The position numbers were made by a program, and so were the translations under genes. A stretch of DNA of 63,196 nucleotides, filler included, from Stramenopiles sp. TOSAG23-3 (taxonomy: Eukaryota): NCBI GenBank assembly GCA_900128585.1. It is 7 parts of 7 records of this genome, joined end to end, with 100 filler letters (N's around TTAATTAATTAA, not from the genome) between each part and the next. Parts side by side here need not be neighbours in the genome. Positions count along the whole stretch, not along the records: positions 1 to 11,886 come from LT642721.1; 6 more parts are not named here. One strand, written 5' to 3'. Shown one piece after another: positions 4,432 to 23,677 of this stretch (positions within the stretch are counted from its first letter, which is position 1; each line of letters opens with the position of its first letter). The notes beneath the pieces were generated by a model. The model saw nothing but the letters and a program-made list of their open reading frames with translations, did not search any database and was not told the DNA's origin.

Positions 4432-4931
4432 ATTTATACAGTTCTTGTTTCCATCCACGGAAAGTCCTAGTTTATTTACAATAATTTATTGTTTTAAATC
4501 AGAATCTACATAGATTTTATCGACTAGAAAATCGTTTGTAACTTTGTAAATATTTATGTATCTATTTAGTTTCATTCTTGAAAAAAGGCAGGAGGGTTGC
4601 TTTATTATTTTTTGAAACTCCTTCTTCTTCTTTCTTTTTTTTTTGTTGGTTGAAGAAAAAAAAAAAAAATATATATATATAATGGATGATGATGATGATT
4701 TTATTTTGTTTTTAGAATTATTAATTATTATTTTTTTAATATAAAATATACTGCTGTGTACGAGGCACGAGGCACGAGGCGTAATATAAATATGAAAAAA
4801 ATATAACTGATGAATGACGACCGACCTATATAAATAAATACCTACCCGTCCCCGTCCCGACGACTGACGTTGTGTTTTCTAGTATTTATATTTTATAGTT
4901 ACTGGTACGTACCAGTACGTACGTACACAGC

Positions 4932-5096
4932 CCAAGTGGTGATTCATGTCGCATTTTAAAATTATTTTGGAAACCAACCCAATGATATGCCTATGTAATA
5001 TATATCCCTATCAAAACACATTAGAAAATGGAAAACGAATAAAAGGGTTGGTTTCCAAAATAATTTTATTAAAAAAATGCGACATGAATCACTTGG
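4932..5096. repeat. Long inverted repeat (about 49/52 bp arms, 64 bp spacer), MITE-like
   Basis: Left arm 4932-4980 is ccaagtggtgattcatgtcgcattttaaaattattttggaaaccaaccc. The reverse complement of the right arm 5045-5096 is ccaagtgattcatgtcgcatttttttaataaaattattttggaaaccaaccc. Confidence 0.85.
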
Positions 5097-5116
5097 ATTA
5101 TTATTAATTTATTTAA

Positions 5117-5186
5117 CCAGATCATTTCTGAGGAGTCATCATGATGATGATGATTTTTTTTACTCCGAACAGAGTTTCATTTCTGG
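5117..5186 (-). promoter_or_regulatory. Eukaryotic SECIS element (type II-like) in the 3' UTR of the D27-like gene
   Basis: The minus strand reads CCAGA-A-AUGAA-ACUCUGUUCGGAGU-AAAAAAAA-UCAUCAUCAUCAUGAUG-ACUCCUCAGAAA-UGAU-CUGG. It has helix I (CCAGA/UCUGG), an AUGA...UGAU GA/GA core, helix II (UCUG/CAGA plus GGAGU/ACUCC), apical A residues and an apical mini-stem. Confidence 0.8.
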
Positions 5187-5222
5187 CAGGCGGGCGGCGT
5201 TGTGACAAAAATCGTTTTGTCT

Positions 5223-6152
5223 TTATGCCGATTCCTCGTAGGCCAATTCAACGTGTTTTTGCCCTTTCTCTGGCTTGGTTCTGTTGCGTAATGACAAAGG
5301 TGGAAGCGCAGAATTTGCCTCCATGGAGAAACGACAACGCCCTGTTTTGAGATTTGGGGTTACTTTCCATTTGGCACCGAGAATTCCTGGACCGAAGAGC
5401 TCCTCCATTCCCACTTGTCACTCGTTGATACAAGCACGGTTTCCCTTCGCATCATCGTCGTAAACTTTACGGGCTCGCGAGAGAAACGTGCAACTCGGTA
5501 TTTCCAAGCAAACGCTGGACCCTTTGTCTTCGCCAATGCTGTCGTCTCTGCTAGGTGTGGCATCTCTACAGAATACCGGTACAAAGGGTACGTACGTAAA
5601 CCCAATCAGCCACCAACCTAAAAGAGGGAAAATTGTCGTGGCGATTACCAAACGAAAGACGAAAGAGTTCAGTAGGTTGTTTGTACAACATTTATTGACC
5701 TCTTTTCTCATTAACGGAAACGGAAATTCAGTGATGCGCTTGCGCATTGAAACCCGGGCCTCTTCTTCGGTTATTTCCATAATGTTTTCGAACAGGATTC
5801 CCCCGTAACCAATTGGAAAAGCTTTCAACAGCTTCTCAAACGTTGCTTCTTTGAACGACGGTTTAACAGTGAACAGGCTGACCACCCTGGTCACCATCAT
5901 GTTCATTAACCGTATCCATAACCAACGAAAGGGCGTCAACACAACATAACTAACAGACCACAATACATTTGACGGTGCTACGATGCACACATTCGCGAGC
6001 AACGCCTGCAGCCTATACAATTTGAGACATCCCAAAACGGAAAGAGTCAGCAGAATGAGGCAGTACCCCAACAACACGAGACCGAGGATGACAAGGCCGG
6101 GGTGCCCACTCTCAAGGACATCTTGGACCGTAAGGATTCCAAATCCCACCAT
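5223..6152 (-). CDS. D27 (DWARF27) beta-carotene isomerase-like protein with in-frame TGA (candidate Sec245); 309 aa
   Basis: ORFs 5418..6152 and 5223..5414 are in the same frame, separated only by TGA(5420-5418)-CAA. The joined sequence WWLIGF...EIPSCTFL...RACINE*QVGMEELF...PNLKTGRCRFSM follows the D27 pattern W L.GP...V.KCRYL...GICINTCKLPTQ.FF...PNFED.SC.F. The true stop is TAA at 5225-5223, with a SECIS downstream. Confidence 0.8.
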
Positions 6153-6738
6153 ACTTCCAGTTCCAAAAGTGCGACGGTCTAACCGTTTCCAGATTATCTT
6201 TTCTTCTCTATATCCTTTAATGAAGCATCCATTTATTCTTTCTGAAACAGTACTAATACAGTTCGTGTGTATTTAAAATGAATGTATTTGAACAACTCTA
6301 TACTAATACTTATTTTTGTTTTTTCCACTTCTTATTTATTATATTATTATTATGTATTAATACTGCTGTGGTGGTACTTCTTCTTCTTTTTTTTTTCTCC
6401 CTCTTCTTCTTTTCTGCTTCCACTTCTTTTTTCCACTGTGTTTTTGTGTACAGTTCGAACAGTGCGGTACCTGGTACTACCTGTACAAGGTACGGTACAT
6501 GTACCGAAGTCAAATATTCGTAGTAGTAGTAGTTGTATTAAAAATAAATATGTACGAATAATAATTATTATTATTATTATCCAAAAATAATATAATTAAT
6601 ACTTCGTCTATTTCCTAACCCTTACCAAACAAACAAACAATCAATCGAAAAAATGAAACCAAGTTGAACGAAGCGGAAAAATTAAAATAATACATCAGAT
6701 TAGACAGCACAATCTGATAAAACCTACAATCAACAGAA

Positions 6739-8598
6739 ATGAACCTATTAAACTCAGCCCTTGGATCGCTCAGCACTCCGTTGGTCGGGGGCCTCAGTTA
6801 CGCCTTTGGTCGGAGCGGGGCAGACGTTTCGCAACGTAGTAACTGCGCAGGTTTGCACCAAAAAATGTTAGCAACACTGCCGACGACTATGGAACCCAAA
6901 GAAAGCCTAAGCGACGAGGCTATCAATATGATGGTCGAGGGGGCAGTTCGCGGTTCCCAGACTTTGAAGAACATGTCGGCCGCCGAACGTGCTCAGTTGG
7001 CGAGAAAGTGCGCGAAAAGTTGCGCGCAAGCAACCGTTAGTATTGTAGACGATACCATCAAATACAAGGGTAGTTACGAGACTGGGCGGGGGGAAGAAAC
7101 GATCGCGTGGAGTGCTACCGTTGGGACTGTTCGTGAACTCGCAGAGACGCTCGAAGTCATCGCGGCATCAGGCCCATCTGGCCTTTTGCAACAGCCAACG
7201 AGCACTTCGACAAAAGGCGGGAGGACAAAGGCCACCGTCTTTCCCCGAGGCTTTTACCAGCACATGCTTTTTTCGGGGTACAAAGGGGAACTATGGTTCA
7301 AAGAGACGCCGGAGGTCAGCAATCCCATCGACAACCCAGCAGAAACTTGGCTTCTTCTTGGTGCTGGTAACCAGGCGACCGTGATAGGTTGCGATGTTGC
7401 TCACCTGGTCTTTGCCGTCGGTTGTGCACTTGTTTGCAAAATCAACCCAGTAAACGATTATTTGAAGACGCACATGGAGAAAGCCTTTGCACCTCTAGTA
7501 GAGCTTGGGATAGTTCAGTTTTGCTATGGCGGCATTTCGGAATCGCAAAAGCTTATTCACGATTCTCGTATAGACGGCATTCACATGACCGGATCAGACA
7601 AAACATATGATATAATACAGTTTGGACCGAAACTTGGCGAGAACCCTGTTCCGTCCCTTAAAAAGATGATTGCAACAAACAAGAAATTGAACAAACTCAA
7701 CCTGAGCAAGCCGTTCATGGCCGAGTTAGGGTGCTCGACCCCGTACATAATCTGCCCCGGTAAATGGAATGCTGCTGACATAGACTTTCACGCCCGCGCA
7801 GTGGTATCCATGTGTGTGCACAACGGGCACTATAATTGCCTCGCAGCACAAAATATAATCGTTTCTGCCCATTGGCCGCAGAGGAAAGATTTTGTCGACG
7901 CCGTCAGGAAGCATTTACAAGCAACCCAGTCACGTTCCGCGTATTATCCCGGCGCTGCATCGAGATTAGAGCAGTTTCGAGCAGCCTACGCAGAACAAAA
8001 AATCTCAAACTTTAATGGAGGCAAAGCAAGCGATGGTGTGTTGCCTTGGACAATTATTGAAGGGGTGTCATCAGACAGCCCTGCGTGCAACCATACATGC
8101 AGGAACGAGGCGTGGACCGCTTTAATGACGGAAATCGTCGTCCCTTCCAAATCTGATGCTGATTTTTTAGAGCAAGCTGTAACGTTTTGCAATGAAAAAG
8201 TCTGGGGAACCTTGAGCTGTGCTATATTCATGCCCCCAGATCTGATCGCGCGCGAGCCAATTGCTTGCGAAGCGGCGGTTGCAAACTTGAAGTATGGTTC
8301 CGTGTGCGTCAATGCCCCGACGGGTTTAGGGTACTTTGTGACTGCGTGCTCCTGGGGGGGTTACATCGGCCACTGCCCAACGGACATTCAAAGTGGGATC
8401 GGGCAGATTCATAACACGCTACTATTTTCGAACGTAGAAAAGTCGGTCATTCGAGCCCCGTGGAATTCTGCCGTCACTCCAATGTGGTTTCATGACAATG
8501 CCAACCACGAAGCGCTGGCAAACGCGGTAGTCGATTTTCAAGCGTCTCCTAACATGATAGATTTTACCAGAGTGGCACTTGCTGCGGTGAGGGGCTGA
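6739..8598 (+). CDS. Aldehyde dehydrogenase superfamily protein (divergent, bacterial-type subfamily)
   Basis: Motifs GAGN, VCKINPVN, HMTGSDKT (NAD binding), ELGCSTPYII (catalytic Glu), NGHYNCLAAQ (catalytic Cys), GTLSCAIF and LKYGSVCVN. Confidence 0.85.
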   Translation: MNLLNSALGSLSTPLVGGLSYAFGRSGADVSQRSNCAGLHQKMLATLPTTMEPKESLSDEAINMMVEGAVRGSQTLKNMSAAERAQLARKCAKSCAQATVSIVDDTIKYKGSYETGRGEETIAWSATVGTVRELAETLEVIAASGPSGLLQQPTSTSTKGGRTKATVFPRGFYQHMLFSGYKGELWFKETPEVSNPIDNPAETWLLLGAGNQATVIGCDVAHLVFAVGCALVCKINPVNDYLKTHMEKAFAPLVELGIVQFCYGGISESQKLIHDSRIDGIHMTGSDKTYDIIQFGPKLGENPVPSLKKMIATNKKLNKLNLSKPFMAELGCSTPYIICPGKWNAADIDFHARAVVSMCVHNGHYNCLAAQNIIVSAHWPQRKDFVDAVRKHLQATQSRSAYYPGAASRLEQFRAAYAEQKISNFNGGKASDGVLPWTIIEGVSSDSPACNHTCRNEAWTALMTEIVVPSKSDADFLEQAVTFCNEKVWGTLSCAIFMPPDLIAREPIACEAAVANLKYGSVCVNAPTGLGYFVTACSWGGYIGHCPTDIQSGIGQIHNTLLFSNVEKSVIRAPWNSAVTPMWFHDNANHEALANAVVDFQASPNMIDFTRVALAAVRG

Positions 8599-19229: not shown

Positions 19230-20497
19230 CGAAGTACGTTGGTACCTCAAACGCTTCGATTGAATTTGAATTTCGGACCTTCCAATTTAAAAAACTTAAA
19301 ACCCGAAAGTGCCATCTATATTAAAAGATGAACGACTATATATTTTATAACTATAAAAAAGGGAAGTTTGAAGTTCATTCTTCTTCCTTTTTTTTTTCTT
19401 CTTCTTATTATTCTTCTTTTTCTTCTTCTTCTTCTTCTTCTTCTTCTTCTTCTTCTTCTTCTTTCTTCTTCTTCTTCTTCTTCCTTTCTTCTTCTTCTTC
19501 CTTTCTTCCTTTCTTCTTTCTTCTTCTTCTTCTTCTTCTCTTCTTTTTTTGTCGTAACATTACCCTAACCTTAACCCTAAAATACAAAGAAAGAGAAAGG
19601 AGGAGTTTAGTCCCAAAGAAAGAAAGAAATTAAATAAAAAAAGGGGGGGGTTATGTATTAATATAGAAATAGCACTGAACTACTATATTCTATATAGTAT
19701 ACTATATTTAGATAGAATATTTATATAATAATAATAGTATTATAAATAGGTATTTGTATTGTATTCATTATAATTCTAAGTTATTAAGTACAGAAGGACT
19801 GTCCAATTCGTTAATTAAGCGAAGAAAGAGCGAAGAGGGAAGAAACAGGGAATAGCAAGGGAACTTCAAACGAAAGTCTTGCTTTATGGTATAATTGTAG
19901 TCTAAATAGTACTTGACCCTATATATAGGGTGAAGCTTTAAAGAAAGAAAGAGAAGCCACCTAAAATTAAGGAAATGTATTTTTGTTGGATAATAGTATG
20001 GGACCCTTTTTGATGCTAAGTCTATCTATTTGTATGGATTTATATGAAATCATTTCTTGATATTTCATAATAACTAAATAGAATTGAAAAAATGATAAAA
20101 TATACATCTTTTACATATGAATAGCATATATATATATTTCCTTAATATTTGATTATTTGGTCCAGCTCTTCTTTGCTTTGTCCTTCTTCTTCTTCGTTCT
20201 TCTTCGAGGAGAAGAAAGAAAGAAGAAATAATTAATAATAATAATAATAAAAAAATAAAAATTAATTAAAAAAAGAATGTGAGTGAGGAAAAGAACTAAT
20301 GGATCAATTAGTTAGATAAGTCGGTCGGTGTGCGTGTGTTTTGTCCTTTTGTGAAATGATTTTGAAGAAGTCATCTTCGATTGTGCGTTCGTTTGTTCGT
20401 TCGTTTCTTCTTGTTGTTGTTACAAAACAATACAATATTGTTCCTACGTTAGCGCTTGCTGTTCTTGTTCTTGTGCTTGTTGTCGAGCGAGTGAGAA

Positions 20498-23400
20498 ATG
20501 GCAGGACGGCGTGCACCGAGGAGGAGGATGGACCGCCAGCGTAGTTTTGTCCAGCTCGTAGTAGCCTTTCTCCTAGTTTTCGTCTCCCTTTCCCATGCAT
20601 TGGACAGTGGCAAATCGACCAGTGAGAAGACGGCCGCCAAAGGAAAGACCATGCTCCGGTCTCAGGCTGGTGCTCTGCTGAAACGGGACGGGGCCTCGGC
20701 ATTAGGAGGAGGGGGAAACGCCAATAACGTGGTAGTCCAGCAAGCGGCCGTTGCGGGGAACACCGGGTCCCAGGCGCACCAGTGCCCCGCGGAGAACGTC
20801 GAAGACCTGGAAGAGGACGACTTTACGTCCGTTTTCAAGACCGGGCTGCCCAAAGACTACTTTGTATATTTTTTCAAGCCGAACGAGCCCAACTGCGAGG
20901 CCTTCGCGCCCAAGTACGACTGTGTTGGGACGGAATACAAGCCGCTCGCGTCGACCACGCACGTGGCCAAGTTTCCAGCGTCCGACCACCCCGTGGTGCG
21001 GGACGAGTATGACATCACGGTGTACCCGACCTTACGGTTTTTTCCAAAGGGGTACATCCACACGCCGAACGCGCAAGGCATAGAGTATAGTGGGGAGATG
21101 GAGAAGGACAACGTCGCCGCGTGGGTCCACGTCATGCGTGGGAAAACGGCGAAAAACGTTGCGGACCACGTCCCCGCGACCAACAGCATACAGATAGGCA
21201 CCACGCCCGGGGCGTCGGACGTGATGGAAGACGGGAAATCCAAGGCCGACATGCCCATGTCCAAGACTACCGCCACGGAAGACATGCTTTACTTGCAAGT
21301 GGAGGACCCCTCCGTCGATCAGGCACTGCTGTGCGGGGAGAAGGGCCTCGCGTCGGGAAAGTGCATGAAGGCCGTGTCCACGACGGAGAAAATCTGCCAA
21401 GTGCGAATTGCACGGCCGACGGGGGAGGCCGGCCGGGCGAAGGGCGGGCACCGGCTGTGGTACAAGTGCATTTCCGCAGGGACGTGCAACATAGCGGCGG
21501 AGGTTATGTCCGCGCCAGAGCCTGCGATGTTTCACTTCAAACACGAGTGCACGGCGGCCGCGCGGGTGGGGTTTAAGATCGGCACCGTCACGGGCACCGG
21601 GGACGTGGTGAACAACGGGTTCGTGGATCAAGACTGGAGCCTGGGAACGGCCGACCCGAAGGCGACGGCGCAAGGGGAAGAGTCCTCGATGACGTTTTCC
21701 TTGATCGACACCGTAGAGGCTGGCGGGTTTGACGTTCGCCCCGTCAAAGTGCAAGTCGGGGACACCGACCTCGTCACCGTCAAAGTCACCGGGGACATCC
21801 CGACCGTGGAGAGCACGCTCCGCCCGAACGTGTACCTGAACCACCCCAAAGTGTACAACGCGGCGCTGGAAAAGCCTGCCTCCATGAGCAGCGTGTGGAA
21901 CGGCCACGCGGCCAGCAAGGCCGTGGACGGCTCGCACGGGACCCCTGGGGAATCCCACCTTGCCTGTGCGATCACGGGGAAGCACGGGGAGGACCCGGAG
22001 CCGTACTGGGAAGTGGACTTGGGCACCGACGTTGCAAAGAACGAAATAGTGAAACACATCCGTGTCTGGAACACGCCCTCCCTGGACACGCAGTACCGCC
22101 TGGCTCCGGTGGTGGTCCTTGTCTCCGCAGAGCCCCTGCCGAGGGGGTTGAAGGCCGCGCAAGAGAAGGCCTTGTACTCGAAAAGTTTTTCCGACATCAA
22201 AGCCGTGTACGACTATGTCTTGCCCGCCAACGACGCCTTCGCCCGGTACGTCCGCGTCCAACTGGTGAACAAGGACTTCCTGCAGCTGGCGGAAGTGGAA
22301 GTGTTCGTTGTCCCGTCGGACATTCGTTGCGAAGACCCGATCAGCGACCACGGCTTTGCCATCTGCGCAAAGGGCGGCGTGAACCAGCCGGTCTCCTCAA
22401 AATTAGAATTCACGTGCAAGCGCCCGGGGACCACAAACGTCCAGATGACCGTCCCGTTGTTCCCGCAGTACCACCCCAACAATCCGCTGAAGTACGCCTT
22501 TCAAAAGAAATGCAGCGCCGAGGCCGCGGTCGACTTTCTCGTGGGCAACAGCAAGGATGGGGGCGAAATCGTGGACGCCGGGGTGGTGGAGCGCGGCTTT
22601 GTGCACGCCAAGACGGTGAAGGAGGCCTTGAAGACGGAGAAACGAAAGGTCATATCGGGCGACGAGCGCGTGCTTGTCATGTACATGCAGGCCAAGAAGG
22701 ATTCGACCCAGACCATTAAATGGCCGAACATGACCGTCCACCAGGACGACAAGGCGATGAACCCGACGCTGATACCATGGCACTTGAAGCCCGACGATCT
22801 GACCGTAAAGGACACCCCCACCGGAGTCAACGTTTCGTTTGGTTGCGTGAAAAAAGGGTTTGGAATGGTCAACTTCAAGCTGACCTACACCCCGATTTTC
22901 CAACCGTACTCTCCGATCCAATACAGCATCCTGAAGGAGTGTGGCGGCAGGCCCGTGGGGCTGAATGTCCACATGGCCGGGCAAGGGAAGGAAGAGGGGA
23001 CGGGGAAAACCATCCCGGCGTTTTCCGAGGAAAAGAACCTGGTAGCGATCGTCGACGGTGTCGCACAGAAGGATTTCTCCGACGAGGACAAGACGGTGGG
23101 CCCGGGGCAGGTGCCGGAAGAGGAAGCCTCCACGACGTTTTACCTTGATGTCCCCCCGACAGAGTTAGAGTACGCCGAAGGGCACCGAAGTGCGCCCAAA
23201 ACCACGTGCCGGAGCTCGCTGTTTAGCCAATGCCGCCAGCTGCAGAAGTCTCATACGCATGGCGCGCCCGTTCGCGCCTCGTGCGAGCCTAACATTTGCA
23301 GCGGGGACGTCTTCGGCCTGACGCACGGGCCGGTAATGTCAGGGGAGGCGGTGGGCAGTGGTGCGTCGGCGCCGGAAGAGTTGGAAGCCGCCAACGGCAA

Positions 23401-23677
23401 AATACCCATGAAAGTCCACTACCATTGCACGAAACGGGCCAAGACGACGGTTACGTTGACGTTTCAGAACGAGTTTTACGACCCCGTCTCCGTATCATAC
23501 GTGAAGCACTGCTACCCTTGGACCCACACGACATGGGGACGAGTGGTGGTTTGGACCAGTGGCATCCTCGGCTCCGTAGGATTTATTTGTGCCATTTTGT
23601 TTGTCGGGGGGCAGAAATCTCTCTACCACAGGATGGCGCATGGAAACAGTATCGACTACATGGAATTGGAAGAGTAA
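20498..23677 (+). CDS. Type I membrane protein: signal peptide, thioredoxin-like domain, four C...KxC repeats, F5/8C (fucolectin-like) domain, C-terminal TM
   Basis: Trx-fold segment FVYFFKPNEPNCEAFAPKY...YPTLRFFPKG; F5/8C segment NAALEKPASMSS...ASKAVDG...PYWEVDLG...ARYVRVQL...LQLAEVEVF; TM segment VVVWTSGILGSVGFICAILFVG. Confidence 0.85.
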   Translation: MAGRRAPRRRMDRQRSFVQLVVAFLLVFVSLSHALDSGKSTSEKTAAKGKTMLRSQAGALLKRDGASALGGGGNANNVVVQQAAVAGNTGSQAHQCPAENVEDLEEDDFTSVFKTGLPKDYFVYFFKPNEPNCEAFAPKYDCVGTEYKPLASTTHVAKFPASDHPVVRDEYDITVYPTLRFFPKGYIHTPNAQGIEYSGEMEKDNVAAWVHVMRGKTAKNVADHVPATNSIQIGTTPGASDVMEDGKSKADMPMSKTTATEDMLYLQVEDPSVDQALLCGEKGLASGKCMKAVSTTEKICQVRIARPTGEAGRAKGGHRLWYKCISAGTCNIAAEVMSAPEPAMFHFKHECTAAARVGFKIGTVTGTGDVVNNGFVDQDWSLGTADPKATAQGEESSMTFSLIDTVEAGGFDVRPVKVQVGDTDLVTVKVTGDIPTVESTLRPNVYLNHPKVYNAALEKPASMSSVWNGHAASKAVDGSHGTPGESHLACAITGKHGEDPEPYWEVDLGTDVAKNEIVKHIRVWNTPSLDTQYRLAPVVVLVSAEPLPRGLKAAQEKALYSKSFSDIKAVYDYVLPANDAFARYVRVQLVNKDFLQLAEVEVFVVPSDIRCEDPISDHGFAICAKGGVNQPVSSKLEFTCKRPGTTNVQMTVPLFPQYHPNNPLKYAFQKKCSAEAAVDFLVGNSKDGGEIVDAGVVERGFVHAKTVKEALKTEKRKVISGDERVLVMYMQAKKDSTQTIKWPNMTVHQDDKAMNPTLIPWHLKPDDLTVKDTPTGVNVSFGCVKKGFGMVNFKLTYTPIFQPYSPIQYSILKECGGRPVGLNVHMAGQGKEEGTGKTIPAFSEEKNLVAIVDGVAQKDFSDEDKTVGPGQVPEEEASTTFYLDVPPTELEYAEGHRSAPKTTCRSSLFSQCRQLQKSHTHGAPVRASCEPNICSGDVFGLTHGPVMSGEAVGSGASAPEELEAANGKIPMKVHYHCTKRAKTTVTLTFQNEFYDPVSVSYVKHCYPWTHTTWGRVVVWTSGILGSVGFICAILFVGGQKSLYHRMAHGNSIDYMELEE

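What the first reader, a model, noticed from the sequence alone, without database searches (positions are those of the whole stretch)
5223..6152. Candidate new selenoprotein family: D27 beta-carotene-isomerase-like protein with UGA at a conserved cysteine
Seen in sequence: the ORF track splits this gene in two (5418..6152 and 5223..5414), but both parts are in one frame and are separated by a single TGA at 5420-5418. Read through, the protein is 309 aa: ...WWLIGF...EIPSC221TFL...RAC241INE-U245-QVGMEELFG...VTPNLKTGRC273RFSM..., ending at TAA. Established knowledge: the C-terminal domain of DWARF27 (D27), the iron-binding beta-carotene isomerase of strigolactone synthesis, has the pattern WL.GP...KCRYL...GICINTCKLPTQ.FF...PNFED.SC.F. 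The TGA falls on the second Cys of CxxxC, and the similarity continues past it (PN....C.F), so a stop here would cut the domain in half. A SECIS-like hairpin sits in the 3' UTR. Inference: this is a Sec-containing D27-like protein in which Se replaces a probable metal or Fe-S ligand rather than a thioredoxin-type redox residue. D27 is not among the selenoprotein families I know of. The N-terminus is hydrophobic (membrane-anchor-like) rather than plastid-transit-like, so the substrate may differ from the plant enzyme.
Basis: partly seen in the sequence, partly recalled or inferred. Interest (0 to 1): 0.93.

Follow-up and report, generated by a model that had tools for sequence, protein, structure and literature searches.

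The report
Selenocysteine D27-like iron-sulfur protein gene
A marine protist gene encodes a membrane-anchored relative of the plant carotene isomerase D27 in which a conserved UGA codon appears to put selenocysteine where D27 has one of the four cysteines that hold its iron-sulfur cluster, which would be a new kind of selenoprotein.

Summary
Window 6152..5223 (-) is one frame of 309 codons, broken only by TGA at 5420-5418 (codon 245).

- **Conserved TGA.** It sits at the same column in all 5 related loci. Two independent orthologue groups are 57-64% identical to the window protein.
- **Coding continues past it.** Downstream sequence is under purifying selection, and one group has an intron 27 nt after the TGA that keeps the frame.
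- **Family census.** Of 37 family representatives covering the column, 32 end exactly there and 5 carry Cys.
- **SECIS.** A type-2 SECIS-like hairpin (5187-5116, -) starts 43 nt after the stop. Equivalent elements lie in the orthologues' 3' UTRs.
- **Reads.** Contigs from three RNA-library studies and one DNA run keep the TGA, unspliced.
- **TGA is a normal stop** in other window genes.
- **D27 link.** All 7 full-length members tested have Pfam D27-like_C as best hit, but only one passes threshold (window protein 17.8 < 27 bits). The C..CxxxU..C spacing matches the published [4Fe-4S] ligands of rice D27.

Not tested: Sec machinery (no genome), selenium incorporation, cluster binding.

I found no paper linking D27/DUF4033 to selenoproteins. 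Identity with the unnamed "Hypo" or MSP algal selenoprotein families cannot be excluded.

The parts
5421..6152 (-). Coding region before the Sec codon (codons 1-244), from ATG at 6152-6150
   Evidence: Orthologues align from about residue 21 onward. An RNA-library contig of run X9 covers 5078-6165.
6015..6110 (-). N-terminal hydrophobic segment (residues 15-46), a likely membrane anchor
   Evidence: Kyte-Doolittle 19-residue windows >=1.6, peak 2.68. No transmembrane or transit-peptide predictor was run.
5418..5420 (-). In-frame TGA, codon 245, read as selenocysteine; second position of the C241-x3-U245 motif
   Evidence: TGA at the same column in 5 of 5 loci. Unchanged in contigs of RNA-library runs X9, X13 and X18 and of DNA run X5, with no joints. 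Cys at this column in 5 homologues.
5226..5417 (-). Coding region after the Sec codon (codons 246-309), followed by stop TAA 5225-5223
   Evidence: First 32 residues are 28/32 identical in L002 and 25/32 in spliced L003 (read from the alignment printed). pN is 0.16-0.26 over the first 38 codons while pS is 0.84-0.90.
5313..5462 (-). Stretch matching Pfam PF13225 D27-like_C (residues 231-280 = profile 34-82 of 88); it spans the TGA
   Evidence: E 0.0034, 17.8 bits, below the gathering score of 27. No hit when the two halves are scanned separately.
5490..5492 (-). Cys221 codon (TGC), first of four conserved Cys/Sec positions
   Evidence: Invariant in alignment A2 of 23 sequences. Codon read.
5430..5432 (-). 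Cys241 codon (TGT), first residue of CxxxU
   Evidence: Invariant in alignment A2. Codon read.
5334..5336 (-). Cys273 codon (TGT), fourth conserved Cys, in the 'C.F' motif after P-N/D
   Evidence: Present in all 11 sequences that cover it: window, L002, L005, L003, P0053, P0060 and the five Cys-forms.
5116..5187 (-). SECIS-like element, type 2. Helix I is 5187-5183 paired with 5120-5116. Two unpaired A follow at 5182-5181, then AUGA at 5180-5177. Helix II is interrupted. An unpaired run of 8 A lies at 5161-5154, starting at the 16th nt after AUGA. A 7-bp mini-stem is 5153-5147 paired with 5142-5136. UGAU is at 5124-5121.
   Evidence: MFE fold -18.9 kcal/mol, z -2.47, 4 of 200 shuffles as good. 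It is the only candidate in both strands of the whole window under my descriptor. Equivalent elements occur in L002, L005 and L003. It is covered by the X9 RNA-library contig, whose differences fall in the A-run and the mini-stem loop only. No Rfam SECIS hit.

Best explanation
This is an expressed nuclear gene of a marine eukaryote. It encodes a 309-residue selenoprotein. UGA245 is recoded to selenocysteine by a type-2 SECIS element in the 3' UTR (shown as far as sequence analysis can show it; my odds about 0.9). The protein belongs to a diverse, so far unnamed family of environmental protist proteins, predominantly in the Sec form. The family has an N-terminal membrane anchor and a core distantly related to the D27 / D27-like beta-carotene isomerases (Pfam D27-like_C; odds about 0.75). 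By inference, its four invariant positions C221, C241, U245 and C273 correspond to the four cysteines that bind the [4Fe-4S] cluster of rice D27 (C199, C211, C215, C242). On that reading the selenolate of U245 is a direct ligand of one iron of the cluster (odds about 0.5). By analogy with the mechanism proposed for D27, the cluster would take and return one electron from a lipophilic, conjugated, membrane-resident substrate held in a hydrophobic pocket, allowing a double bond to rotate. Replacing S by Se at one ligand would tune the cluster's potential, reactivity or oxygen sensitivity. The substrate is unknown. The membrane anchor, in place of a plastid transit peptide, suggests a different location from the plant enzyme.
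For: **Sec coding**
- There is a single in-frame TGA. TGA is at the same column in 5 of 5 loci.
- An intron (182 nt, GTAAGT..ATATAG) lies 27 nt downstream of the TGA in L003/L004, and the frame is restored after splicing.
- Synonymous sites are saturated on both sides of the TGA (pS 0.77-0.99). pN after the TGA (0.26-0.34; 0.16-0.26 in the first 38 codons) is no higher than before it (0.24-0.32).
- Of 59 family proteins, 32 end exactly at C-x-N-E, 5 read through with Cys, 3 are separately called post-TGA pieces, and 19 do not cover the column.

**SECIS**
- My descriptor finds 1 candidate in 2 x 63,196 nt of the window, 43 nt after the stop.
- It finds 1 on the gene strand of L002 and 1 in L005, each 45 nt after the stop.
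- In L003 a long-range helix joins AUGA 1345 to UGAG 1480 (MFE z -3.9, 0 of 200 shuffles as good).
- In all three groups the unpaired A-run starts at the 16th nt after AUGA. Helix II differs in sequence but still pairs.

**Reads**
- The stretch is held by 20 of 24 listed runs from 15 studies, 6 of them RNA libraries.
- Contigs of 3 RNA-library runs from 3 studies and 1 DNA run cover the TGA with no difference and no joint. They carry allelic differences elsewhere, at 5557 and 5562.

**TGA is an ordinary stop elsewhere**
- 22 of 66 stop-to-stop frames >=150 codons end in TGA. These include a DAO oxidoreductase ORF whose Pfam match covers profile positions 2-353 of 353.

**D27 link**
- PF13225 is the best Pfam hit in 7 of 7 full-length members tested (E 8e-7 to 0.05). 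P0043 scores 29.3, above the 27-bit gathering score, and carries PF13225 in the database's own precomputed annotation.
- The OsD27 ligand assignment and C-x11-C-x3-C-x26-C spacing come from PMC13254051 (passages read). Here the spacing is C-x19-C-x3-U-x27-C.
- In the AF2 model of the Cys-form P0011 (pLDDT 84, pTM 0.78) the CxxxC lies on one long helix and the last Cys on a strand, as described for D27.
Against: - No Rfam SECIS family matched, at gathering score or at E<=10.
- My SECIS descriptor was written after I had seen the window's hairpin, so its specificity in the window is partly circular.
- It found nothing in L003 under either the strict or the relaxed setting. The L003 element I propose has about 100 nt of extra apical structure and a weak helix I.
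- The descriptor also gave candidates that are probably false: L002 (-) 9955-9879, and two in L004, one of them inside the coding region.
- For 29 of the 32 truncated family proteins I have no DNA, so that their stop is TGA is inferred.
- The window protein is below Pfam's threshold, as are 6 of the 7 members tested.
- The Atlas neighbour with PF13225 scored only 0.80, which is a lead only.
- No Sec machinery could be sought, because no genome is held. There are no tRNA genes in the window.
- RNA-library contigs can contain DNA, so transcription is likely but not proven.
- Neither cluster binding nor selenium has been shown.
Confidence: 0.75

Rival explanations
1. It is a genuine selenoprotein, but C241-x3-U245 is a redox-active thiol/selenol pair that forms a selenylsulfide. 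It is not a pair of iron-sulfur ligands. The family would have lost the cluster, or would use Sec for catalysis or electron relay.
For: Most known selenoproteins use Sec in redox motifs next to Cys (established knowledge). In methanogen HdrA, Sec197 was recently modelled as a Cys-Sec relay and not as a cluster ligand (PMC13518236, passages read). Residues i and i+4 on one helix could come close enough to bond.
Against: All four Cys/Sec positions of the D27 ligand set are kept. C221 and C241 are invariant in 23 aligned sequences. The fourth Cys is present in all 11 sequences that cover it. A simple redox pair would not need this. The spacing matches D27's cluster ligands.
Confidence: 0.25
2. 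The family is already catalogued as a selenoprotein under another name. Candidates are the 'membrane selenoprotein' MSP, or one of the 'hypothetical protein'/'Hypo' families of algal selenoproteomes. In that case only the D27 and Fe-S connection would be new.
For: MSP is described as a predicted membrane selenoprotein found almost exclusively in the Sec form (PMC2375036 and PMC7539508, passages read). That resembles this family's membrane anchor and its 32:5 Sec:Cys ratio. Several 'hypothetical' selenoprotein families are listed there without description.
Against: MSP is reported to have two Sec residues and to occur in Dictyostelium, Chlamydomonas, Volvox and Ostreococcus. This gene has one TGA. 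In the 20 family clusters I looked up, no member came from those organisms: all were environmental, plus two diplonemid transcriptomes and one unnamed EukProt entry. Searches for 'selenoprotein'+'D27', 'DUF4033', and 'selenocysteine'+'carotene isomerase' gave no relevant paper.
Confidence: 0.2
3. It is a selenoprotein, but the resemblance to D27 is convergent (a cysteine-rich motif) and not homology.
Against: Seven members sharing only 24-66% identity all pick the same Pfam family over the same profile region, as best hit in each and as the only hit at E<=0.03. One passes the curated cut-off. The secondary-structure order and the weak structural neighbours are those reported for D27.
Confidence: 0.15
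4. The TGA is not read as Sec. It is either a true stop giving a 244-residue protein with a conserved downstream element, or it is read through or reassigned to a standard amino acid.
For: Gene callers stop there in 32 family representatives. No direct evidence of selenium exists. No Rfam SECIS hit was found.
Against: The codon-level conservation after the TGA is protein-like. An intron that keeps the frame lies after it. Stopping there would remove the fourth conserved Cys and half of the Pfam domain. Five homologues have Cys precisely at this column. TGA ends other complete genes in the window. SECIS-like elements are conserved in the 3' UTRs.
Confidence: 0.05

Closest known systems
DWARF27 (D27) and D27-like1 beta-carotene isomerases, Pfam PF13225 D27-like_C (formerly DUF4033)
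   Same: PF13225 is the best and essentially only Pfam hit of 7 of 7 family members. Four conserved Cys-type positions have the spacing C..C-x3-C..(26-28)..C, the middle pair lies on one helix, and the last is on a beta-strand. The weak structural neighbours are TRAPP Bet3 and H-NOX, as reported for D27. The hydrophobic character is consistent with a lipophilic substrate.
   Different: Sec replaces the Cys that corresponds by spacing to OsD27 Cys215. There are 19 residues, not 11, between the first two ligands. An N-terminal membrane anchor takes the place of a plastid transit peptide. Six of the seven members tested, including the window protein, fall below Pfam's gathering score. The family is known only from marine environmental eukaryotes and diplonemids. 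Substrate and activity are unknown.
[quoted passage not shown]
   Same: Sec stands in for a Cys that binds a metal centre and is not in a thioredoxin-type redox motif. Cys-form homologues coexist.
   Different: Those are prokaryotic enzymes and the metal is Ni or Mo/W. Here the host is a eukaryote using a 3' UTR SECIS, and the inferred partner is an iron of a [4Fe-4S] cluster. I know of no natural precedent for that. The one candidate I recalled, HdrA, turned out on checking to be modelled as a Cys-Sec pair.
MSP, the 'membrane selenoprotein' of Ostreococcus, Chlamydomonas, Volvox and Dictyostelium (PMC2375036)
   Same: It is a predicted membrane selenoprotein of unicellular eukaryotes, of unknown function, almost always in the Sec form.
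   Different: MSP is reported with two Sec residues and in other lineages. No sequence was available to compare because the supplements are closed.

Membership tests
Eukaryotic selenoprotein gene (UGA-Sec with 3' UTR SECIS) | In-frame UGA conserved in orthologues | tested here: met
   TGA at the same column in 5 of 5 loci. 4 are independent of the window and fall in two orthologue groups at 57-64% identity.
Eukaryotic selenoprotein gene (UGA-Sec with 3' UTR SECIS) | Protein-coding conservation continues downstream of the UGA | tested here: met
   pN 0.16-0.34 after the TGA with pS 0.77-0.99. A frame-preserving intron lies after the TGA in L003/L004.
Eukaryotic selenoprotein gene (UGA-Sec with 3' UTR SECIS) | Cys (or Sec) aligned with the UGA in homologues | tested here: met
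   5 Cys-forms and 32 forms ending at the column, among the 37 that cover it.
Eukaryotic selenoprotein gene (UGA-Sec with 3' UTR SECIS) | SECIS element in the 3' UTR: helix I, AUGA / GA quartet, helix II, unpaired A's | tested here: met
   Window 5187-5116 (-), L002 5909-5961 and L005 454-506 under my own descriptor. L003 1345-1483 only by folding. The descriptor was written after seeing the window element.
Eukaryotic selenoprotein gene (UGA-Sec with 3' UTR SECIS) | Match to a curated SECIS covariance model (Rfam) | tested here: not met
   No SECIS family at E<=10 in window 4600-5500, and none at gathering score in the window or in L002-L005. That Rfam's SECIS models are built mainly on animal sequences is recalled, not checked.
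Eukaryotic selenoprotein gene (UGA-Sec with 3' UTR SECIS) | Host has tRNA-Sec, EFSec, SBP2, PSTK, SecS, SPS2 | not testable with these tools
   No genome is held for the window. ARAGORN finds 0 tRNA genes in the window.
Eukaryotic selenoprotein gene (UGA-Sec with 3' UTR SECIS) | Selenium in the protein | not testable with these tools
   Needs 75Se labelling or mass spectrometry.
D27 / D27-like (Pfam PF13225 D27-like_C) | Score at or above Pfam's gathering score (27 bits) | tested here: not met
   Window protein 17.8 bits, E 0.0034. Among 7 family members, only P0043 passes (29.3 bits); the others score 13.9-21.9 bits. The family is therefore a distant relative, not a plain member of the Pfam family.
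D27 / D27-like (Pfam PF13225 D27-like_C) | Four cysteines that bind the [4Fe-4S] cluster (OsD27 C199, C211, C215, C242) | tested here: met
   C221, C241, U245 and C273 are conserved with matching spacing. The third position is Sec. The equivalence is inferred from spacing and profile coordinates.
D27 / D27-like (Pfam PF13225 D27-like_C) | D27 core fold (helices backing a four-stranded antiparallel sheet; related to TRAPP Bet3 and H-NOX) | tested here: inconclusive
D27 / D27-like (Pfam PF13225 D27-like_C) | Beta-carotene cis/trans isomerase activity and plastid location | not testable with these tools
The N-terminus is a hydrophobic anchor. No targeting predictor was available.
MSP (membrane selenoprotein, PMC2375036) | Two Sec residues | tested here: not met
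   One TGA in the 309-codon frame. The feature is taken from the paper's text.
MSP (membrane selenoprotein, PMC2375036) | Sequence similarity to MSP of Dictyostelium, Chlamydomonas or Ostreococcus | not testable with these tools
   MSP sequences are only in supplementary files, which are closed. None of the 20 family clusters looked up holds a member from those organisms.

The most novel reading that the evidence does not exclude
This would be the first natural protein in which selenocysteine is a direct ligand of a [4Fe-4S] cluster. It defines a widespread, predominantly Sec-form family of membrane-anchored D27-like enzymes in marine protists, heterotrophs such as diplonemids included. The selenolate ligand would tune a one-electron, cluster-driven isomerisation of a membrane polyene or other conjugated lipid.
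Probability: 0.35. Interest if true: 0.9.

Novelty: new variant of a known kind. Interest (0 to 1): 0.8.

Why it matters
Nearly all known eukaryotic selenoproteins use Sec in thiol-type redox chemistry. A family that places Sec at an iron-sulfur ligand position would extend what selenium is used for in eukaryotes. It would also give inorganic biochemists a natural Se-ligated cluster to study.

The finding shows that automatic gene calls truncate most members of this family at the UGA (32 of 37 representatives). The family's Fe-S domain is therefore invisible to domain annotation in ocean metagenomes.

It extends the D27 superfamily, known from strigolactone and carotenoid metabolism in plants, algae and cyanobacteria, to non-plastid, membrane-anchored proteins of marine protists. 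That raises the question of what substrate they act on.

It may also add to the links between the selenium and iron requirements of marine microbial eukaryotes.

Tried and rejected
- **Rfam.** No SECIS family at E<=10 around the gene or at gathering score in the window plus L002-L005. Only sub-threshold miRNA-like hits appeared, on a neighbouring inverted repeat.
- **Genome-level checks.** No genome is held. The genome search could not use the loci. So Sec machinery and bona fide D27 genes from control genomes were out of reach.
- **ESM Atlas.** With the natural Cys-form P0011 it gave only leads under 0.9: rank 3 was a PF13225 cluster at 0.80, and ranks 1-2 were bacterial hypothetical proteins.
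- **Fetching canonical D27 proteins for a profile-profile test.** A profile of 40 family sequences returned 3 proteins, all family members. The C-terminal domain of P0043 returned only itself. No hhalign test against D27 could be made.
- **PDB sequence search** with the family profile: 0 hits at E<=1.
- **Foldseek** against the PDB: no match at E<=0.001.
- **MAFFT alignment of the three SECIS candidates** misaligned the 3' arms. I therefore built no covariance model and ran no pair-count statistics. The statement that helix II keeps pairing with different sequence rests on separate folds.
- **Loose motif** ATGA-N12-16-AAAA-N20-50-TGAT: 7 window matches against 2.1 expected. It is too unspecific to use.
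- **Scan for other ORF-TGA-ORF junctions.** 21 were found, and none but this one looks like a selenoprotein.
- **RNA contig ends** near 5078-5087 coincide with a repeat that also breaks the DNA contigs. They say nothing about the poly(A) site.
- **Sec/Cys tree.** At least 2 state changes are needed on an unrooted tree of 28 rows. The direction (Sec ancestral, or gained twice) cannot be told without a root.
- **Literature.** HdrA Sec as an Fe-S ligand, which I had recalled, was checked and is not what the recent structure paper proposes. A Chlamydomonas selenoprotein review does not mention MSP.
Full report
**1. The observation**

On the minus strand, 6152..5223 is a single reading frame of 309 codons, interrupted only by TGA at 5420-5418 (codon 245). 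It ends at TAA 5225-5223. Table-11 ORF calling splits the gene into a 244-residue ORF and a 63-residue GTG-started ORF.

**2. Is the TGA real, and is it read through?**

A scan of metagenome contigs returned five loci. L001 is the same sequence as the window. L002 and L005 form one orthologue group at 61-64% identity. L003 and L004 form another at 57-58%.

- All five have TGA at the same column.
- In L002 and L005 the frame simply continues after the TGA.
- In L003 and L004 it continues for nine codons. It then meets a 182-nt AT-rich intron with GTAAGT and ATATAG ends, and resumes in a frame that restores the alignment.
- Over the first 32 residues after the TGA, the window protein is identical to L002 at 28 positions and to spliced L003 at 25 (read).
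- Synonymous sites are saturated everywhere (pS 0.77-0.99). Non-synonymous divergence after the TGA is 0.26-0.34, or 0.16-0.26 in the first 38 codons. Before the TGA it is 0.24-0.32. The downstream part is therefore under at least as much protein-level constraint as the upstream part.

An exhaustive HMMER search of 1.84 billion representative proteins gave 56 hits at E<=0.001. With the three extra hits, I examined 59 proteins:

| Class | Count |
|---|---|
| End exactly at the motif C-x-N-E, one residue before the TGA column | 32 |
| Continue with Cys at that column | 5 |
| Short ORFs that start just after the column | 3 |
| Fragments that do not reach the column | 19 |

For only 3 of the 32 do I have DNA showing that the stop is TGA. 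For the other 29 it is inferred.

The representatives differ by more than 50% from each other, so this is a large and old family that is mostly in the apparent Sec form. On an unrooted tree of 28 members built from the pre-TGA part, at least two Sec/Cys changes are needed, and apparent Sec forms lie on both sides of the midpoint.

**3. Independent reads**

The stretch is held at half or more of its sampled words by 20 of 24 listed runs from 15 studies, all marine or aquatic. Six of them are RNA libraries from five studies. I laid contigs of three RNA-library runs from three studies and one DNA run.

- One 1,092-nt contig of the oligo-dT library X9 covers 5078-6165, which is the whole coding region plus the 3' UTR hairpin.
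- Contigs of X13, X18 and the DNA run X5 also cross the TGA.
- None shows a difference at 5418-5420 and no joint was reported, so the TGA is neither an assembly error nor spliced out in these contigs.
- The RNA-library contigs differ from the window at 5557 and 5562. They therefore come from another allele, the one seen in protein P0002, and still keep the TGA.
- Such contigs can include DNA, so transcription is likely but not proven.

**4. SECIS**

The hairpin lies in the 3' UTR, with AUGA starting 43 nt after the stop. Its parts on the minus strand are:

- helix I, 5187-5183 paired with 5120-5116;
- two unpaired A;
- AUGA at 5180-5177, opposite UGAU at 5124-5121;
- an interrupted helix II;
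- an unpaired run of eight A at 5161-5154;
- a 7-bp mini-stem.

This is the layout of a type-2 eukaryotic SECIS.

A descriptor that I wrote finds exactly one candidate in both strands of the 63-kb window, and it is this one. It requires helix I of at least 5 bp, [AG]TGA..GA cores, a spanning helix II with at least 7 pairs, and unpaired AA 10-18 nt from the core. Because I wrote it after seeing the element, the fairer test is the orthologues:

- The unchanged descriptor finds one candidate on the gene strand of L002 (5909-5961) and one in L005 (454-506). Each is 45 nt after the stop.
- It finds none in L003. There, folding shows a long-range helix joining AUGA 1345 to UGAG 1480, with about 100 nt of extra apical hairpins (z -3.9, 0 of 200 shuffles as stable).
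- L004 ends 45 nt after its stop.
- The descriptor also gave candidates elsewhere: one on the opposite strand of L002, and two in L004, one of them inside the coding region. It does produce false positives.

In all three groups the A-run begins at the 16th nucleotide after AUGA. Between the window and L002 the core motifs are alike, while helix II has a different sequence that still pairs. The X9 allele differs from the window only in the A-run (four more A, one A to C) and in the mini-stem loop.

Against this, Rfam's SECIS models give no hit.

**5. TGA is not generally reassigned**

22 of 66 stop-to-stop frames of 150 codons or more in the window end in TGA. One is a DAO-family oxidoreductase ORF whose Pfam match covers the entire profile. 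Others are a KH-domain protein and a Naf1/Gar1-domain protein.

**6. What the protein is**

- The read-through protein's only Pfam hit is D27-like_C (PF13225): E 0.0034, 17.8 bits against a gathering score of 27. The hit spans the TGA (residues 231-280) and is absent when either half is scanned alone.
- The five natural Cys-forms and the L002 read-through all have the same best hit (E 8e-7 to 0.05). P0043 passes the curated threshold at 29.3 bits and carries PF13225 in the database's own annotation.
- A 2026 paper on rice D27 (PMC13254051, passages read) assigns Cys199, 211, 215 and 242 as ligands of a [4Fe-4S] cluster. Its evidence is modelling, anaerobic spectroscopy and loss of activity in C211A/C215A.
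- It places Cys211 and Cys215 on one helix, and relates the fold to TRAPP Bet3 and H-NOX.
- The present family keeps four positions with the same pattern: C221-x19-C241-x3-U245-x27-C273, against C-x11-C-x3-C-x26-C in D27.
- An AlphaFold2 model of the Cys-form P0011 (40-row alignment, pLDDT 84, pTM 0.78) puts the CxxxC on one long helix and the last Cys on a strand.

I read this as a distant D27 relative. Membership in the Pfam family as curated is not met for the window protein.

The N-terminus (residues 15-46) is a strong hydrophobic segment. Some subfamilies carry long N-terminal extensions.

**7. Mechanism**

Shown, as far as sequence can show: UGA recoding signals, and a conserved four-position Cys/Sec set.

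Inferred: U245 is one of four ligands of a [4Fe-4S] cluster. By analogy with the single-electron-transfer mechanism proposed for D27, the cluster would act on a lipophilic conjugated substrate.

The main rival is that C241/U245 form a redox-active selenylsulfide. That is what a recent structure paper proposes for Sec197 of methanogen HdrA (PMC13518236, passages read). The conservation of all four positions argues for the cluster.

**8. Novelty**

Searches for 'selenoprotein'+'D27' (55 papers, 15 listed, none relevant), 'DUF4033' (9 papers, all plant D27 or unrelated to selenium) and 'selenocysteine'+'carotene isomerase' (2 papers, both irrelevant) found no report.

The survey of algal selenoproteomes lists 42 families. 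They include MSP, 'Hypo', FeS oxidoreductase and FeS reductase, but it does not mention carotene, D27 or DUF4033 in its main text (PMC7539508, passages read).

MSP is said to have two Sec residues and to occur in Dictyostelium and green algae (PMC2375036, passages read). That does not fit this gene. Its sequence, and those of the 'hypothetical' families, are in supplements that I could not open.

In the 20 family clusters I looked up, members are environmental 'hypothetical proteins'. The exceptions are two diplonemid transcriptome proteins, both Cys-forms (Artemidia motanka and Namystynia karyoxenos), and one unnamed EukProt entry.

**9. Verdict**

This is a real and well-supported selenoprotein gene. 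It belongs to a widespread family that gene callers truncate, and it is distantly related to D27. Sec sits at the position of an iron-sulfur ligand. The selenoprotein call is strong. The D27 homology is probable. The Se-Fe ligation is a well-motivated inference that needs biochemistry.

Noticed in passing
window 4935-5097 (perfect 24-nt arms at 4957-4980 and 5045-5068): A long inverted repeat lies just beyond the gene's 3' UTR. It gives sub-threshold plant-miRNA-like Rfam hits (MIR4208, 45.9 bits against a gathering score of 140). In the marine DNA run X5 its summed depth is 57-667 against about 5 for the gene. It therefore looks like a multi-copy, MITE-like element, and contigs of all runs break there.
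   Followed up: partly
window 5143, 5146, 5153-5155: The allele in RNA-library run X9 differs within the SECIS-like element only in the unpaired A-run (four extra A, one A to C) and in the 4-nt loop of the mini-stem. The paired positions are untouched.
   Followed up: partly
proteins P0020, P0021, P0043, P0051, P0060 (C-termini): Four Cys-form members and one post-TGA fragment end in a shared L-[ED]-W motif. The window protein and its close orthologues lack it. It may be a sorting or interaction signal of one subfamily.
   Followed up: no
proteins P0029, P0036, P0039, P0040, P0044, P0054: One subfamily ending in K-C-[LV]-N-E carries a 120-200-residue N-terminal extension. In P0029, P0040 and P0044 it contains a conserved W-x-G-D-G-x-W..N-x-x-W-x-G-R-G segment, ahead of the hydrophobic region. 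No domain was assigned.
   Followed up: no
L002 9955-9879 (-): A second hairpin passes my SECIS descriptor on the opposite strand of the orthologous contig. It could belong to another selenoprotein gene or be a false positive.
   Followed up: no
window 6739-8598 (+): The divergently oriented neighbour, about 590 nt upstream of the gene's start, is a 619-residue ORF. It has a partial aldehyde dehydrogenase match (profile 149-297 of 461, E 4e-9).
   Followed up: partly
window 20495-23677 (+): A 1,060-residue open frame with a single thioredoxin domain (residues 105-211). No in-frame TGA was noted in it.
   Followed up: no
window 4905-4930 and 6450-6500 (-): Short GTAC-rich, partly palindromic tracts flank the gene on both sides, in the intergenic DNA.
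   Followed up: no
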